A DNA stretch of 6,679 nt from a virus (lineage: Duplodnaviria > Heunggongvirae > Uroviricota > Caudoviricetes), in IMG/VR virus record IMGVR_UViG_3300029006_000021, positions 1-6,679 of that record. One strand, given 5' to 3'. The position numbers and the translations under genes were made by a program. Below, one piece after another: positions 1 through 6,524 of this stretch; the stretch's first letter is position 1, and each line of letters starts with the position of its first letter. The notes beneath the pieces were generated by a model. The model had not been told where the DNA came from. It made no database searches and saw nothing but the letters and a program-made list of their open reading frames with translations.

Positions 1-31
1 GGGCGATTAACATCGCCTTTTGCTGCTTCAT
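1..31 (-). CDS. hokD: Hok/Gef-family small membrane toxin, N-terminal 10 codons only; gene continues beyond the left edge of the window
   Basis: Minus-strand ATG at 29-31 preceded by SD-like AAGGAGA about 9 nt upstream; visible translation MKQQKAMLIA matches the N-terminus of HokD/RelF as I remember it (HokC/Gef would read MKQHKAMIVA). Only 10 residues are in the window, so the call is tentative. Confidence 0.45.
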   Translation of the reverse strand, partial: MKQQKAMLIA

Positions 32-152
32 AGCCTGCTTCTCCTTGCCTTTCGGCACGTAAGAGGCTAACCTACATGTGCAAAGCATGAAATTGGCCTC
101 AGATTAATGTTAAGCGTCTTGCCGGACGCGTAATGTTAACTGGGGCTTTTCT

Positions 153-188
153 CTGTCTGCCTTACGGTGGCATGCCCGAGGCAGACAG
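153..188. other. 10-bp inverted repeat (CTGTCTGCCT / AGGCAGACAG) with 16-nt spacer containing the palindrome GGCATGCC, in the leader upstream of the hok-like gene
   Basis: Read directly. Not followed by a U-tract on either strand, so not a typical terminator; could be part of hok-type mRNA folding or a protein-binding site. Confidence 0.35.
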
Positions 189-276
189 CCTCAAGCACCC
201 GCAGCAATTCTACTTAACTCTCGCTTTACCGCAAACCGTTTTTACCCGATATGGGAATCCCCATATCGCAATGAAA

Positions 277-3704: not shown

Positions 3705-4667
3705 TCACCCCCTGAATCCAGGCGGTATTTCAGTGTCCGGTTCAGAAATGTGATTCACGCAACGCTGCGCGGGCGAACGCCCCAGGCGGATAACCAGTTC
3801 ATCCCATTTTTCCCGGAGTTTTGCCGGACTCATGATGTTTTTTACCCAGAACGAATCCCGCTGGACACGCCCAAACATTTCACAAATTTGTCTGTGAGTT
3901 CTGCCATCCAGCATCCGCATTGTGCGCACGTCATTGGCCCATGCTGTCCAGTTGGGTTCTTTCGGTCTCGTGATCTCGCCATCATCGCTGGCCGCCTGCT
4001 CGTAAAGACTCACGATTCGTCCCCAGATCCACTGTGCGCACACCAAATCTTCCTGACTTCCCCACTGGCGTTTTTTCGCACTGAACACAACCGCGTCAGG
4101 GTGTCGGGTTAAAAAATCCTGTTCAGCCGTCTGCGGGTCCGGTTGCGAAGCGTCCGGACAAGAAGATCTTTTCTCTGACGGATCAGGTTTTAATACTGAC
4201 GGATCGGGGTCAATCATCGCCCCCCTAATCGGCAGTTTTTTATCAACCGTTGATCCATCAAAATTTGACGGGTCAACCGTTGAGGGGTCAATATTTGACG
4301 GGTCAACTGTTAACGGGTCATTTTTTGCCGGGCTAATTTTTCTTTTCGGTTTATATGACTCACGCGCCGCCGCCGCAGCTGCTTCGAGTTTTTCCACATT
4401 AAGCCGATAGATATTGCTTACATTACGCCCACCGACCTTACGCTCTTCCTTCGTCAGCCAGCCCTCTTTCGCCAGTTCTGCAATAGCCGATTTCACGGTG
4501 GATTCACTTCTTGCACCGATCTGACGCCGGATAGTTTCAATGGCAGGCCATGACACGCCCTCGTCATTGCTGTAGTCTGCTAGACGGGCCATCACTGCCA
4601 CCCGGGATAAGATCATGCCGGTGAAGGCGCATCCTTCCCAGACAAGACCATGAAGCTTGCTGCTCAT
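3705..4667 (-). CDS. ydaU: Phage replication initiator (lambda O-like role): N-terminal winged-helix domain, repeat-bearing linker (DPSNIDPSTVDPSNFDGSTVD), C-terminal domain; about 320 aa
   Basis: ORF track 3705..4682; I prefer the ATG at 4665-4667 (MSSKLHGL...) with a GGGGG SD-like run upstream, over the GTG at 4682. Sits immediately upstream of the DnaC-like gene and contains the iteron array. Symbol by synteny with Rac, not verified. Confidence 0.85.
   Translation of the reverse strand: MSSKLHGLVWEGCAFTGMILSRVAVMARLADYSNDEGVSWPAIETIRRQIGARSESTVKSAIAELAKEGWLTKEERKVGGRNVSNIYRLNVEKLEAAAAAARESYKPKRKISPAKNDPLTVDPSNIDPSTVDPSNFDGSTVDKKLPIRGAMIDPDPSVLKPDPSEKRSSCPDASQPDPQTAEQDFLTRHPDAVVFSAKKRQWGSQEDLVCAQWIWGRIVSLYEQAASDDGEITRPKEPNWTAWANDVRTMRMLDGRTHRQICEMFGRVQRDSFWVKNIMSPAKLREKWDELVIRLGRSPAQRCVNHISEPDTEIPPGFRG
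4249..4323. repeat. Iteron array: four to five direct repeats of a 15-bp unit (core GGGTCAA, approximate consensus TTGACGGGTCAAC) inside the initiator coding sequence; putative phage replication origin
   Basis: GGTCAA cores at 4271, 4286, 4301 and 4316 (GGTCAT), exactly 15 bp apart, with a degenerate copy at 4249-4263; read directly from the sequence. Lambda ori iterons likewise lie within the O gene linker. Confidence 0.75.
4324..4365. other. AT-rich tract flanking the iterons (candidate DNA-unwinding element of the origin)
   Basis: Sequence TTTTTTGCCGGGCTAATTTTTCTTTTCGGTTTATATGACTC directly adjacent to the iterons; by analogy with lambda ori. Confidence 0.45.
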
Positions 4668-4689
4668 AAAACCCCCGAACACCGTGCTT

Positions 4690-5115
4690 TTAGTGCATCA
4701 CCACAGCATTCCCTGCCGGGCCGCCGCGATTCATCTGGTCATACAAAACAACCGCTGACGCAACAAAATCGTCGACATCCTTCACCAGCCGATCCCGCCG
4801 TTCGACGATCTCACGGTAATACTCAGAACTGTGGCTGCGCATACGGGCCACCAGCAAAGGCGGCATCGCCTTTTCGATCGCTGGTAACAGAGCCTGAATT
4901 TTTTCAACAGCATCAGGGGTGTCTTTATCCAACCAACGGAAAATTTTCTGGGTATTACGGGCCAGGGCTTCCGGATGACTGTCGTCATACAGTTCCGGGA
5001 ACGTCATCCCCAGTTCGAAATAAGTCCGGGCTATTTCAGCTGCAGGAACTTTCTCGCCATCAGGATATGCCCAGGCATTGATCGCCATGCGGATGTGTTC
5101 ATGCTTGATTTTCAT
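4690..5115 (-). CDS. ydaT: YdaT-like protein, 141 aa (lambda CII-like regulator; historically annotated as a toxin)
   Basis: ORF track; ATG 5113-5115 with SD GGAG about 9 nt upstream; 17-nt overlap with the upstream ydaS-like gene; position between Cro-like and O-like genes as in Rac. Symbol by synteny and size, not verified. Confidence 0.85.
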   Translation of the reverse strand: MKIKHEHIRMAINAWAYPDGEKVPAAEIARTYFELGMTFPELYDDSHPEALARNTQKIFRWLDKDTPDAVEKIQALLPAIEKAMPPLLVARMRSHSSEYYREIVERRDRLVKDVDDFVASAVVLYDQMNRGGPAGNAVVMH

Positions 5116-5380
5116 GAATCAAGCTCCTAGAAAGTGGTTGTGTTAACGTTTTGGTATCTTCCAGCTCAGGCCAAATATTCATCCAATCAAAAGGCCTTAG
5201 TTGCTGACGTGTAACTTCACCATTACTGGCTCGCTCAATAAGGACACATAACGATGCCCCTAACACTTGACCTTTACTCAATGCCTTTCTTAGATAACCG
5301 ATGCTGGTACCACACTCGCATGCAAACATACGCTGTTCATCTGACGAAAGAGAATTGAGAAATATTCTTAATTCTTCCAT
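5099..5380 (-). CDS. ydaS: YdaS-like Cro-type HTH regulator, 93 aa
   Basis: ORF track; ATG 5378-5380 with SD AAGGAG 5 nt upstream; HTH-like segment CGTSIGYLRKALSKGQ; first gene of the operon divergent from the repressor gene. Symbol by synteny, not verified. Confidence 0.85.
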   Translation of the reverse strand: MEELRIFLNSLSSDEQRMFACECGTSIGYLRKALSKGQVLGASLCVLIERASNGEVTRQQLRPFDWMNIWPELEDTKTLTQPLSRSLIHENQA

Positions 5381-5405: not shown

Positions 5406-5433
5406 AGAATACCTATAGGTAAACAAAAGTCAA
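5406..5433 (-). promoter_or_regulatory. PR-like sigma70 promoter for the ydaS operon: -35 TTGACT (5428-5433), 16-bp spacer, -10 TATTCT (5406-5411), read on the minus strand
   Basis: Hexamers read directly; the -10 overlaps the perfect palindrome at 5410-5421; predicted transcript start sits about 20 nt upstream of the ydaS SD. Confidence 0.55.
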
Positions 5434-5487
5434 TACCTTTGGGTTGTTTACCTTACGGTAATCACATCTATTATTTACCTATGGACA
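5410..5487. promoter_or_regulatory. Operator cluster: four TACC-N4-GGTA-type palindromes (5410-5421 TACCTATAGGTA, perfect; 5434-5445 TACCTTTGGGTT; 5450-5461 TACCTTACGGTA; 5476-5487 TACCTATGGACA); candidate repressor binding sites
   Basis: Read directly; they sit between divergent repressor and Cro-like genes and overlap the predicted promoter hexamers, an arrangement like lambda OR1-OR3. Confidence 0.55.
5447..5474 (+). promoter_or_regulatory. PRM-like promoter for the repressor gene: -35 TTTACC (5447-5452), 16-bp spacer, -10 TATTAT (5469-5474); predicted start at or near the ATG at 5481 (leaderless mRNA)
   Basis: Hexamers read directly; there is no SD upstream of ATG 5481. Lambda cI is transcribed as a leaderless mRNA from PRM, which is the precedent. 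Confidence 0.4.
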
Positions 5488-5900
5488 AATATGAATTTAG
5501 ACGACAGCAGCTCATCAAAATTCGTGATGAGAAATGCGATGGTAAAGCGGTTAACGTAGCCAGAAAGATCGGTCGCGAGCCTTCTTATGTATCAAGAATG
5601 TTGTACCCAGAGGGGAAAAAGGGAAAAAAACGGATCGCTGATGATATGGTGGAGATTATCGAAGAGTCCTTTGGGTTACCCCGAGGATGGATGGATGGTA
5701 TCGTTTCATCATCAACGAACACAGCCTCCAATTATGAAACAAGGGTTCTAACGCCACGACAACGTATTTTTTTAGATCTCCTAGACGAGTTGCCAGAAAG
5801 TGAAGCGGATAACTTATTAAAAACTCTTGAAGAGAAAAAACAGTATTACAATATGATCTACGAAGAAATCCGTAAAAAGAAAGCACAAAACGCATCATAA
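5481..5900 (+). CDS. racR: RacR-like prophage repressor (cI analogue): N-terminal HTH, no S24 peptidase domain; 139 aa from ATG 5481 (alternative TTG at 5439 gives 153 aa)
   Basis: ORF track 5439..5900; HTH-like GKAVNVARKIGREPSYVSRML; divergent from the Cro-like gene with an operator-rich intergenic region. Start uncertain. Symbol by synteny with Rac, not verified. Confidence 0.8.
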   Translation: MDKYEFRRQQLIKIRDEKCDGKAVNVARKIGREPSYVSRMLYPEGKKGKKRIADDMVEIIEESFGLPRGWMDGIVSSSTNTASNYETRVLTPRQRIFLDLLDELPESEADNLLKTLEEKKQYYNMIYEEIRKKKAQNAS

Positions 5901-5943
5901 CTCACCAAACAACCAGTCACCAGTTAAGACACCTCAAAAAAGT

Positions 5944-5980
5944 TACCCACGGGTATTTACTTTTTAGATACCCGTGGGTA
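5944..5980. promoter_or_regulatory. Perfect 13-bp inverted repeat (TACCCACGGGTAT / ATACCCGTGGGTA) with 11-nt loop; each arm is itself a TACC-N4-GGTA operator-like motif. Candidate OL-like operator pair and/or bidirectional terminator
   Basis: Read directly; 44 nt after the racR stop. On the minus strand the stem is followed by CTTTTTT, on the plus strand by TTCTTCCTTTC. The shared motif with the racR/ydaS intergenic operators favours a repressor site. Confidence 0.5.
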
Positions 5981-6166
5981 TTCTTCCTTTCATACCAACC
6001 CACTCCGCCCCACAGAATGCAGGGCAATACCTCGAGTTACCCGGCAGTGGTCAGGGGTTAAGTAGCCAGCCCGAGGCGTATGAACATGACGGCGGGAACA
6101 CTTTGTATAACAGCGCAGCAGGTTTTTAGTTCCGCTACCCCGGCGTTAAGGGGAAATGAGGTCAAC

Positions 6167-6319
6167 ATGGATACTATCGAGCTTGGCAACAACGAATCTC
6201 TGGTGTGCGGCGTCTTCCCCAATCAGGACGGCACGTTTACCGCGATGACGTATACCAAAAGTAAAACGTTTAAAACCGAAGCTGGCGCGCATCGCTGGTT
6301 AGCCAGAAACGCCAACTGA
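6167..6319 (+). CDS. Small protein, 50 aa (MDTIELGNNESLVCGVFPNQDGTFTAMTYTKSKTFKTEAGAHRWLARNAN), downstream of the repressor gene; possibly equivalent to the small ydaG/ydaF-type genes of Rac
   Basis: Track ORF 6080..6319 trimmed to ATG 6167 with SD GAGG 5 nt upstream. Equivalence to Rac genes is by position only. Confidence 0.5.
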   Translation: MDTIELGNNESLVCGVFPNQDGTFTAMTYTKSKTFKTEAGAHRWLARNAN

Positions 6320-6485
6320 TTAGCGCCAGTAAAAACAGGTTTCCACAGGTTAATGTACCCTGAAAAGTCATGGCATAACACGAAAGCGCACGGAGAGGTT
6401 TCTTTGCATATAAGTCTTGTCGTTAAATTTCTTCGACCGTGCGCTTCCGGTTGTGTAGCCAGTGCAACCTCGTGGTGTACCCATT

Positions 6486-6524
6486 GGCGGCATCGGTTTG
6501 TTGCTGACTGATGTCCGCCCTTTT
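6486..6524 (+). terminator. Candidate rho-independent terminator: GGCGGCATC / GATGTCCGCC stem (one bulge) followed by CTTTTTAAA
   Basis: Read directly; the loop is large (about 14 nt), so this is weak. Confidence 0.3.

What the first reader, a model, noticed from the sequence alone, without database searches (positions are those of the whole stretch)
5944..5980. Operator motif duplicated as a perfect hairpin downstream of the repressor gene: possible OL-like site or dual terminator-operator
The 13-bp perfect inverted repeat has arms (TACCCACGGGTA, TACCCGTGGGTA) that each fit the TACC-N4-GGTA pattern of the racR/ydaS operators. That makes it a candidate second operator locus controlling rightward transcription of the downstream small gene (6167..6319) and beyond, analogous to lambda OL/PL. 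Two operator clusters about 500 bp apart could allow repressor-mediated DNA looping. Read as RNA, the same sequence is a stable hairpin that could terminate transcription.
Basis: partly seen in the sequence, partly recalled or inferred. Interest (0 to 1): 0.5.

Follow-up and report, generated by a model that had tools for sequence, protein, structure and literature searches.

The report
Prophage OL/PL operator pair, terminator hairpin
The hairpin is the pair of repressor-binding sites around the early promoter that drives the ydfA-dicF-dicB genes of a Rac/Qin-like E. coli prophage, an ordinary lambda-style layout, except that the two sites probably also fold in RNA as the terminator of the repressor gene.

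Summary
There is a 13-bp perfect inverted repeat (16 bp with one wobble, loop 5) at 5944-5980. Both arms match TACC-N4-GGTA, a motif with 4 exact hits in the window against 0.05 expected, all next to the repressor gene.

The element is the OL/PL equivalent of this prophage. A -35 (TTTACT, 5956-5961) abuts site 1. The -10 (TATTCT, 5979-5984) starts inside site 2. This layout copies the ydaS (cro-like) promoter on the other side of the repressor gene.

A leader conserved across prophages with unrelated repressors begins at 5991, about 7 nt after the -10. Those other prophages carry their own operators and a promoter at the same position.

Repressors sharing this DNA-binding domain, from Yersinia to Paraburkholderia and phage mEp043, all have three upstream sites plus a 25-26-bp-spaced downstream pair around a promoter.

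The perfect stem is specific to this E. coli lineage. Here it is the only candidate terminator after the repressor gene, is far more stable than in relatives, and shows three compensatory pair changes. A dual operator/terminator role is therefore likely but unproven.

The repressor is not RacR. This is a known kind of element and of modest interest.

The parts
5944..5955 (.). Operator site OL-a (TACCCACGGGTA), immediately upstream of and abutting the -35 hexamer
   Evidence: Exact TACC-N4-GGTA match. TACC/GGTA never or almost never varies in 117-124 distinct sequence contexts, while the central 4 bp vary. The equivalent site is present in 12 distant loci.
5969..5980 (.). Operator site OL-b (TACCCGTGGGTA), in the promoter spacer and overlapping the first two bases of the -10
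   Evidence: It lies 25 bp start-to-start from OL-a, as in the related loci (25-26 bp).
5956..5961 (+). Predicted -35 hexamer TTTACT of the PL-like promoter
   Evidence: Read from the sequence. It matches 4 of 6 consensus positions and is nearly invariant in the lineage. A -35-like hexamer sits at the same position in all 12 relatives. It is homologous in position to the TTGACT of the ydaS promoter.
5979..5984 (+). Predicted -10 hexamer TATTCT (17-bp spacer), the same hexamer as in the ydaS promoter
   Evidence: Lineage variants are TAT[C/T/G/A][C/A]T, so T1, A2, T3 and T6 are kept. The total is 8 of 12 consensus positions, one short of the scan threshold.
5944..5980 (+). Stem-loop (16 pairs, loop 5) in the 3' UTR of the repressor transcript, followed by the tail TTCTTCCTTT (5981-5990). 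It is the probable intrinsic terminator of the repressor gene.
   Evidence: Flagged as terminator-like. Folds at -26.7 kcal/mol, z -6.6. Three compensatory pairs. No other structure lies between the stop codon and the hairpin. It is the most stable OL hairpin among 13 loci.
5936..5941 (.). A-tract upstream of the stem. Its length varies from 4 to 8 in relatives. It makes the hairpin look like a bidirectional terminator and could also act as an UP-like element.
   Evidence: No function was tested.
5991..6166 (+). Conserved untranslated leader of the ydfA-dicF-dicB transcript. Its 5' end is a sharp mosaic boundary and the predicted transcription start.
   Evidence: Matches from query position 692 (window 5991) onward are found in prophages with different repressors. 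Alignment A2 shows unrelated sequence before CATACCA and near identity after it. It is highly conserved, with no covariation detectable.
6167..6319 (+). ydfA-like gene (DUF1391), first gene of the PL-type operon
   Evidence: Pfam PF07151, E = 3.5e-29. RefSeq annotation of L001 places dicB downstream.
5481..5900 (+). Repressor gene (139 aa). Its N-terminal DNA-binding domain is of the phage mEp043 cI type. Its C-terminal tail is of the Tritos/FG92-1 short-repressor type.
   Evidence: phrog_5736 transcriptional regulator. 65% identity over residues 1-86 to mEp043 cI. 39% identity over residues 21-139 to the Tritos CI. No similarity to RacR.
5410..5460 (.). OR cluster of three sites at 5410-5421, 5434-5445 (one mismatch) and 5449-5460. 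It overlaps the ydaS promoter (TTGACT-16-TATTCT, 5433-5406, - strand) and the repressor promoter (TTTACC-16-TATTAT, 5447-5474, + strand).
   Evidence: The same three sites lie at about -73, -48 and -33 from the repressor ATG in most of 23 distant loci.
5099..5380 (-). ydaS-like (Cro-equivalent) gene, the likely second protein acting on the same operators
   Evidence: Pfam YdaS_toxin, E = 9e-6, below the curated cut-off. phrog_35 transcriptional repressor. The role is inferred from CP-933P YdaS (PMC8630535).

Best explanation
The inverted repeat is the OL/PL module of a Rac/Qin-like lambdoid prophage. It holds two 12-bp palindromic binding sites (TACC-N4-GGTA) for the prophage repressor encoded just upstream, and probably also for the YdaS/Cro-like protein. 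The sites are 25 bp apart and bracket a sigma-70 promoter. Site 1 abuts the -35 (TTTACT). Site 2 fills the spacer and overlaps the -10 (TATTCT). Bound repressor would exclude RNA polymerase and keep the rightward ydfA-dicF-dicB operon, which encodes cell-division inhibitors, silent in the lysogen. Transcription is predicted to start near 5991, where a leader shared by prophages of many immunity types begins. Two palindromic sites in tandem are automatically an inverted repeat. In this E. coli lineage the repeat has been sharpened into a 16-bp stem that lies 43 nt after the repressor stop codon. There it most likely also acts, in the repressor transcript, as the intrinsic terminator that stops read-through from the repressor promoter into the toxic operon. 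The operator motif, promoter architecture, conservation and covariation are shown by computation. Repressor binding, promoter activity, the start site and termination are inferred. Confidence in the OL/PL part is about 0.85. Confidence in the added terminator role is about 0.5.
For: 1. The motif has 4 exact hits against 0.05 expected, confined to the two sides of the repressor gene.
2. The segment 5942-5990 (+) finds its best non-self match among 13,064 positions of the window, on either strand, in the ydaS promoter/operator region read on the - strand. The score is 15 against a mean of -11.3 (sd 4.3), with 32 of 49 bases identical, the same operator/-35/operator/-10 order and the same -10 hexamer (I1/I2, 4, 66, 67).
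3. K-12 Rac (RacR), an O157 LexA-type CI prophage and FG92-1/Tritos have unrelated repressors. Each has a sigma-70 promoter scoring 9-11 of 12 that ends 6-10 nt before the same conserved leader. By eye each is flanked by repeats like those in its own cro-repressor intergenic region. In Rac these repeats match the footprint-derived RacR consensus.
4. Twelve loci encode the same DNA-binding domain (Yersinia, Klebsiella, Leclercia, Aeromonas, Paraburkholderia, Stenotrophomonas and others, plus phage mEp043). Each has a pair of TACC-N4-GGTA sites 25-26 bp apart, 0.09-1.3 kb downstream of the repressor gene, with a -35-like hexamer abutting site 1 and a -10 starting at the final TA of site 2. In mEp043, GenBank annotates this spot as putative PL, and N follows it.
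5. Within the lineage (117-124 distinct contexts) TACC, GGTA, the -35 and positions 1, 2, 3 and 6 of the -10 are essentially invariant, while the operator centres and the loop vary.
6. There are experimental precedents. PL933P with OL sites is repressed by PaaR2 and YdaS in CP-933P (PMC8630535). DicA represses dicBp upstream of ydfA in Qin (PMC10448788). Loss of RacR derepresses ydaG, ydaF and kilR (PMC6765115 and bioRxiv 10.64898/2026.09.06.749655).
7. For the terminator role, the scan flags the hairpin as terminator-like and the fold has z = -6.6.
8. Three stem pairs show compensatory double changes (only 4 of 500 shuffles reach this). Intermediates are observed, and 98.9% of cells are paired if G-U is allowed. 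The alternative of symmetry within each operator shows no compensatory change.
9. The 46 nt from the stop codon to the stem (5898-5943) are unstructured (-1.2 kcal/mol). The other immunity types and 8 of 12 relatives carry a separate hairpin or terminator upstream of OL.
10. The OL hairpin here is -25.2 kcal/mol, against -5 to -17.5 in relatives.
Against: There are no binding, start-site or termination data for this element.
The promoter matches only 8 of 12 consensus positions and was not called by the scan.
The U-tract is interrupted by C (UUCUUCCUUU here, UCCUUCUUUU in the commonest variant), so as a terminator it is suboptimal.
In the 12 distant loci, inter-arm complementarity in the central 4 bp is no better than chance (22 of 48 against 20.3 expected, p = 0.32). 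The hairpin is therefore not a family-wide requirement.
The covariation rests on three events in closely related sequences. The shuffle control does not correct for relatedness.
Template-switch mutation in quasi-palindromes (own knowledge) could create the same pattern without selection.
In the commonest variant the - strand also offers an 8 of 12 promoter-like arrangement (read from the sequences).
Confidence: 0.8

Rival explanations
1. Operators and promoter only. The hairpin is a geometric by-product of two palindromic operator sites in tandem and has no function in RNA. The compensatory changes come from mutational bias (template switching or gene conversion within a quasi-palindrome) or from chance in a small sample.
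For: Any two TACC-N4-GGTA sites already give 8 of 12 pairs. Distant relatives keep the sites but not the central complementarity. The U-tract is poor. Only three compensatory events were seen, all in closely related sequences. One uncompensated C-A mismatch variant occurs on two sequence backgrounds.
Against: The stem here extends 4 bp beyond the operators and is 8-20 kcal/mol more stable than in any relative. The OR pair in the same window has the same layout but gives only 9 Watson-Crick pairs and 1 G-T pair out of 12 (read). No other terminator lies between the repressor gene and the toxic operon, whereas other immunity types have one. Most single changes are G-U-compatible on the + strand.
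Confidence: 0.35
2. Pure intrinsic terminator of the repressor gene, perhaps bidirectional. Its resemblance to the OR motif is coincidental, and the ydfA operon is driven from elsewhere.
For: The hairpin lies 43 nt after the stop codon and has an upstream A-tract and a downstream T-rich tail. Both strands fold well.
Against: The motif enrichment is 4 hits against 0.05 expected. The outer stem bases TACC/GGTA are invariant rather than covarying. The same site pair lies 0.2-1.3 kb from the repressor gene in relatives, often behind a separate terminator. A promoter sits at the homologous position in three other immunity types.
Confidence: 0.04
3. Auxiliary operator cluster whose main role is long-range looping with OR (about 510-560 bp away) to tighten repression or autoregulation. 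Promoter occlusion would be secondary.
For: Two clusters of the same sites lie 0.5 kb apart. Lambda CI and PaaR2 octamerise (PMC8630535). The repressor has a C-terminal helical tail that could mediate oligomerisation (inference only).
Against: The length of the A-tract between the clusters varies by up to 4 bp within the lineage, so helical phasing is not conserved. The OR-OL distance ranges from about 0.5 to 1.7 kb in relatives. The invariant -35/-10 geometry points to promoter control. In 933W, which also has 3 OR and 2 OL sites, the repressor does not appear to bind adjacent sites cooperatively (PMC3317979).
Confidence: 0.1

Closest known systems
Phage lambda OL/PL with the upstream timm terminator of the cI-rexA-rexB transcript (established knowledge)
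   Same: Operators of the same sequence class as OR lie on the far side of the repressor gene. They overlap an early promoter that fires away from it. The repressor transcript must be terminated before that promoter.
   Different: Lambda has three 17-bp OL sites, a 2.3-kb OR-OL distance and a separate terminator. Here there are two 12-bp sites 0.5 kb from OR, and the sites themselves form the only candidate terminator. The downstream operon is ydfA-dicF-dicB rather than N.
dicBp and the DicA operators of the Qin prophage (PMC10448788 and the work it cites)
   Same: The promoter occupies the same genomic position, between a short non-SOS-type repressor gene and ydfA-dicF-dicB. Repression by the adjacent repressor has been shown experimentally for Qin.
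   Different: The repressor and operator sequences are different. Three operators are reported for Qin. A hairpin/terminator overlap is not described there.
PL933P/OL1-3 of cryptic prophage CP-933P (PMC8630535)
   Same: It belongs to a ydaS/ydaT-type immunity region. PL has -35/-10 elements copied from PR, and its operators resemble those at OR. Repression by both the CI-like (PaaR2) and Cro-like (YdaS) proteins was shown with reporters.
   Different: CP-933P uses different repeats (18-bp palindromes), has three OL sites, has a toxin-antitoxin pair between the repressor gene and PL, and has different downstream genes.
Phage mEp043 cI with its annotated putative PL (GenBank JQ182734)
   Same: The DNA-binding domain is the same (65% identity over 86 aa). 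It has the same TACC-N4-GGTA sites, three at OR and two at PL, spaced 25 bp, with the -35 and -10 in the same register.
   Different: The mEp043 repressor has a long C-terminal domain (228 aa in all). An extra gene and a canonical terminator precede OL. PL drives nutL-N. The OL hairpin is weaker (-17.1 kcal/mol).
Phage 933W operators (PMC3317979)
   Same: Five natural repressor sites are reported. From my own knowledge of the earlier work they are three at OR and two at OL.
   Different: The 933W site is a 15-bp sequence with a different consensus, so it is not the same specificity class.
K-12 Rac RacR operators (PMC9638921)
   Same: The region has the same gene order and the same conserved leader. 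In Rac the RacR-type repeats bracket TTGACA-17-TATAGT at the homologous position.
   Different: The motif is T/ATAGGC-N3-GCCTAT/A. RacR shows no detectable similarity to this repressor. A separate hairpin follows racR.

Membership tests
Lambdoid OL/PL-type early promoter-operator | Lies beyond the 3' end of the repressor gene and directs transcription away from it into early genes | tested here: met
   The element lies 43 nt after the stop codon. The ydfA, DicF-like and (in L001) dicB genes follow on the same strand.
Lambdoid OL/PL-type early promoter-operator | Contains two or more copies of the same operator sequence found at OR | tested here: met
   There are two exact TACC-N4-GGTA sites here and three at OR, against 0.05 expected.
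Lambdoid OL/PL-type early promoter-operator | Operators overlap the -35/-10 of a sigma-70 promoter | tested here: met
   TTTACT-17-TATTCT matches 8 of 12 consensus positions and sits in the same register as the ydaS promoter and as the promoters of 12 relatives. It is below the scan's 9 of 12 threshold.
Lambdoid OL/PL-type early promoter-operator | The module travels with the repressor as one immunity unit | tested here: met
   A sharp mosaic boundary lies at 5991. Upstream sequence is specific to the repressor type and downstream sequence is shared.
Lambdoid OL/PL-type early promoter-operator | Repressor (and Cro) binding, and repressor-sensitive promoter activity | not testable with these tools
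   This needs EMSA or footprinting and reporter fusions. Precedents exist only for other immunity types.
Intrinsic (Rho-independent) terminator | Stable G+C-containing stem-loop in the transcript | tested here: met
   16 pairs, 7 of them G-C, loop of 5, -26.7 kcal/mol, z = -6.6.
Intrinsic (Rho-independent) terminator | Uninterrupted U-tract directly 3' of the stem | tested here: inconclusive
   The tail is UUCUUCCUUU, with 5 U in the first 8. That is enough for the scan rule, but the tract is broken by C. The commonest variant has UCCUUCUUUU.
Intrinsic (Rho-independent) terminator | Placed at the end of a transcription unit with no other terminator | tested here: met
   The 46 nt from the stop codon to the stem are unstructured. 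Other immunity types have a separate hairpin there.
Intrinsic (Rho-independent) terminator | Stem maintained by compensatory substitutions | tested here: met
   Three pairs show changes on both sides (4 of 500 shuffles reach this). Symmetry within each operator shows none. The sample is small and closely related.
Intrinsic (Rho-independent) terminator | Transcript 3' ends at the U-tract in vivo or in vitro | not testable with these tools
   This needs Term-seq, 3' RACE or in vitro transcription.
   BLASTP finds no significant similarity. The motif differs from the published consensus. Only the gene order, YdaS/YdaT-like neighbours and the downstream leader are shared.
933W-type immunity | 15-bp 933W operator consensus | tested here: not met
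   The consensus positions described in PMC3317979 (G, A, A, C at positions 2-5) do not fit TACC-N4-GGTA. Only the number of sites is alike.

The most novel reading that the evidence does not exclude
One 37-bp sequence is read at two levels. As double-stranded DNA it is the two-site operator and core promoter of the early operon. As RNA at the 3' end of the leaderless repressor transcript it is the terminator that insulates that operon from the repressor's own promoter. In this E. coli lineage the separate terminator seen in relatives has been lost. The operator pair has been sharpened into a perfect stem and is kept so by compensatory substitutions in the operator centres, the bases the repressor tolerates changing.
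Probability: 0.45. Interest if true: 0.45.

Novelty: new member of a known kind. Interest (0 to 1): 0.3.

Why it matters
The result defines the operator motif (TACC-N4-GGTA), the site layout (three at OR, two at OL) and the early promoters of an uncharacterised immunity group. That group is found in 644 of 5426 complete E. coli genomes, and its DNA-binding domain is spread across Proteobacteria.

This promoter controls DicB- and DicF-type cell-division inhibitors, so knowing its operators makes derepression of these prophages directly testable.

If the dual role is real, it is a compact case of overlapping DNA-level and RNA-level codes. It would also be a natural design for insulating a toxic operon from an adjacent constitutive gene. 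Otherwise the element is a textbook lambdoid arrangement.

Tried and rejected
- **Rfam.** The hairpin only gave sub-threshold chance hits to a microRNA precursor model (29 bits against a gathering score of 70). I rejected these.
- **RacR identity.** I rejected it.
- **933W specificity.** I considered it because mEp043 cI is annotated as similar to the 933W CI. I rejected it on the published consensus.
- **Collection scan with GGTATTTACTTTTT.** I replaced it with an anchor outside the hairpin.
- **Family-wide hairpin conservation.** I tested it and did not find it.
- **Symmetry within each operator.** I tested it as the source of the covariation and found no compensatory changes.
- **+ strand RNA versus - strand RNA or cruciform.** By my count, about 11 changes create G-U wobbles and about 5 create mismatches. 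That favours the + strand RNA but is not significant.
- **Literature.** Searches for this operator motif or for an operator/terminator overlap in prophages found nothing relevant.
- **Conserved leader.** A consensus fold showed no covariation because the sequences are too similar.
- **Looping.** I could not assess it. I did not predict the repressor structure because it would not decide the question.

Full report
**Observation.** The window is the immunity and replication region of a Rac/Qin-like lambdoid prophage. The gene order is:
- repressor (5481-5900, +)
- divergent ydaS-like and ydaT-like genes (5380-4690, -)
- O-like and DnaC-like replication genes (-)
- ydfA/DUF1391 (6167-6319, +), to the right of the repressor gene
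- a DicF-like RNA

The closest complete genome is E. coli LZSFT34 at 98% identity, where dicB follows.

The reported repeat is exactly where stated. The arms are TACCCACGGGTAT and ATACCCGTGGGTA at 5944-5956 and 5968-5980. The repeat extends to 16 pairs with a 5-nt loop. As RNA it folds at -26.7 kcal/mol on the + strand (z = -6.6) and -25.9 kcal/mol on the - strand.

TACC-N4-GGTA occurs four times exactly, against 0.05 expected. The hits are at 5410, 5449, 5944 and 5969, with a one-mismatch copy at 5434.

**Anatomy.** Read on the + strand, the order is site 1 (5944-5955), TTTACT (5956-5961), a 17-bp spacer containing site 2 (5969-5980), and TATTCT (5979-5984).

The ydaS promoter found by the scan (TTGACT-16-TATTCT, 5433-5406, - strand) has the same order, and its operators are in the same register. 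Of 13,064 positions on both strands, that region is the best non-self match to 5942-5990, with 32 of 49 bases identical and a score about 6 sd above the mean (also I1 and I2). The element is therefore a second copy of the cro-side promoter/operator cassette, pointing rightward.

**Mosaic boundary and other immunity types.** Matches to the window in prophages with other repressors begin at 5991. I fetched three such types: K-12 Rac (RacR), an O157:H7 prophage with a LexA-family CI, and FG92-1/phage Tritos.

- Their sequence is unrelated to the window up to CATACCA and nearly identical after it.
- In each, the scan finds a sigma-70 promoter scoring 9-11 of 12 that ends 6-10 nt before that boundary.
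- By eye, each promoter is flanked by repeats like those in that prophage's own cro-repressor intergenic region.
- In Rac these repeats fit the footprint-derived RacR consensus (PMC9638921).

The window's -10 ends 7 nt before 5991. The immunity module therefore ends at the predicted start site of a shared transcript.

Experiments in relatives agree with this. DicA represses dicBp upstream of ydfA (PMC10448788). PaaR2 and YdaS repress PL933P (PMC8630535). Loss of RacR derepresses ydaG, ydaF and kilR.

**The repressor and its family.** The repressor is not RacR. Residues 1-86 are 65% identical to the cI of phage mEp043. The C-terminal tail resembles the short repressor of Tritos.

A scan of one genome per species found 23 loci encoding this DNA-binding domain, in Yersinia, Klebsiella, Edwardsiella, Aeromonas, Paraburkholderia, Stenotrophomonas and others.

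- Most have three TACC-N4-GGTA sites at about -73, -48 and -33 from the start codon.
- In 11 of them, and in mEp043, there is a downstream pair of sites spaced 25-26 bp, between 0.09 and 1.3 kb after the repressor gene.
- In every pair, a -35-like hexamer abuts site 1 and the -10 begins with the final TA of site 2, with a spacer of 17-18 bp.
- In mEp043 this spot is annotated as putative PL and is followed by N.

This recurrence, independent of the flanking genes, is the strongest evidence that the two arms are operators around a promoter.

**Is the hairpin itself functional?** In the distant loci the central four bases of the two arms are no more complementary than chance (22 of 48 against 20.3; p = 0.32). 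Their hairpins are weak, at -5 to -17.5 kcal/mol. Eight of the twelve have a separate terminator-like hairpin upstream of OL (also for the other immunity types).

The window's lineage differs in three ways:
- OL starts 43 nt after the stop codon.
- The intervening sequence is unstructured, at -1.2 kcal/mol.
- The stem extends 4 bp beyond the operators and reaches -25.2 kcal/mol.

I collected 117-124 distinct sequence contexts of this lineage from viral and metagenome contigs, using an anchor outside the hairpin. TACC, GGTA, the -35 and positions 1, 2, 3 and 6 of the -10 are essentially invariant. The operator centres vary.

On the 28 distinct hairpin sequences, three stem pairs show changes on both sides, and intermediates are present:
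- G-C to G-U to A-U
- U-A to U-G to C-G, on the window's own sequence background
- C-G to C-A to U-A

Only 4 of 500 shuffles reach three such pairs. 98.9% of cells pair if G-U is allowed. The alternative of symmetry within each operator shows no compensatory change.

This fits selection for an RNA stem on the + strand, that is, a terminator for the repressor transcript. The sample is small and closely related, the U-tract is interrupted, and mutational template switching in quasi-palindromes (own knowledge) could mimic the pattern. I put the terminator role at about even odds.

**Looping.** I could not test it. The A-tract between the clusters varies by up to 4 bp within the lineage, and OR-OL distances vary widely among relatives. 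Strict phasing is therefore not conserved.

**Comparison and verdict.** In function and position this is a lambdoid OL/PL module. It is closest in context to Qin dicBp and CP-933P PL933P, closest in specificity to the unstudied mEp043 PL, and resembles 933W in the number of sites. The defining sequence-level features of OL/PL are met. Binding and promoter activity remain untested. It is not a RacR or a 933W operator.

It is a new member of a known kind. The only unusual aspect is the probable reuse of the operator pair as the repressor gene's terminator.

Noticed in passing
window 5991-6166: A 176-nt untranslated leader upstream of ydfA is nearly identical in prophages with four unrelated repressors. 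The query, which includes this leader, matched in 4007 of 5426 complete E. coli genomes, with up to 7 places per genome. It starts at a sharp mosaic boundary and has no Rfam match. A consensus fold showed no covariation because the copies are too alike. Its function (processing, antitermination or translational control of ydfA-dicF-dicB) is unknown.
   Followed up: partly
window 6472-6520 (+): A DicF-like sRNA scores 29 bits in Rfam, below the gathering score of 48 (E = 0.003). It includes a terminator-like hairpin at 6489-6515. It is a divergent DicF copy in the expected place between ydfA and dicB.
   Followed up: no
window 26-200 (-), and 1-31 (-): There is a full-length match to the sok antisense RNA family (117 bits, E = 5e-27). 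The reverse complement of bases 1-31 begins ATGAAGCAGCAAAAGGCGATG..., giving MKQQKAM..., which looks like the start of a Hok toxin (from memory). The gene is cut off by the window edge.
   Followed up: no
window 4243-4332: Tandem repeats with a 15-bp period (TCAAC..TTGA/GACGGG type) lie inside the O-like replication gene (3705-4682, -). The arrangement is iteron-like and suggests the prophage replication origin, as in lambda, where ori lies within O.
   Followed up: partly
window 5105-5122: TTGATTTTCATGAATCAA is an exact match to the published YdaT recognition sequence TTGATT-N6-AATCAA (PMC9986795). It spans the ydaS 3' end and the ydaT start codon. It is the only exact match in the window and is a candidate CII-like control site.
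   Followed up: partly
window 5447-5481: The repressor promoter candidate TTTACC-16-TATTAT ends 7 nt before the ATG at 5481. The repressor mRNA is therefore probably leaderless, as reported for lambda cI, paaR2 and racR. The mechanical ORF call from TTG at 5439 (153 aa) is probably too long. RefSeq annotates 139 aa.
   Followed up: partly
window 5481-5900: The repressor is a domain chimera. Its DNA-binding domain is shared with long mEp043-type CI proteins (222-233 aa in other genera). Its roughly 55-aa C-terminal tail is shared with the short Tritos/FG92-1 repressors, which have a different DNA-binding domain and different operators. This suggests modular exchange of specificity and oligomerisation or induction domains.
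   Followed up: partly
L003 1454-1495 (K-12 Rac): RacR-type repeats (TTAGGCATAGCCTAT and TTAGGCATTACCTAT) bracket a near-consensus promoter, TTGACA-17-TATAGT, just upstream of the ydaG leader. This looks like the Rac PL/OL. The RacR papers I read describe only the racR-ydaS intergenic operators.
   Followed up: partly
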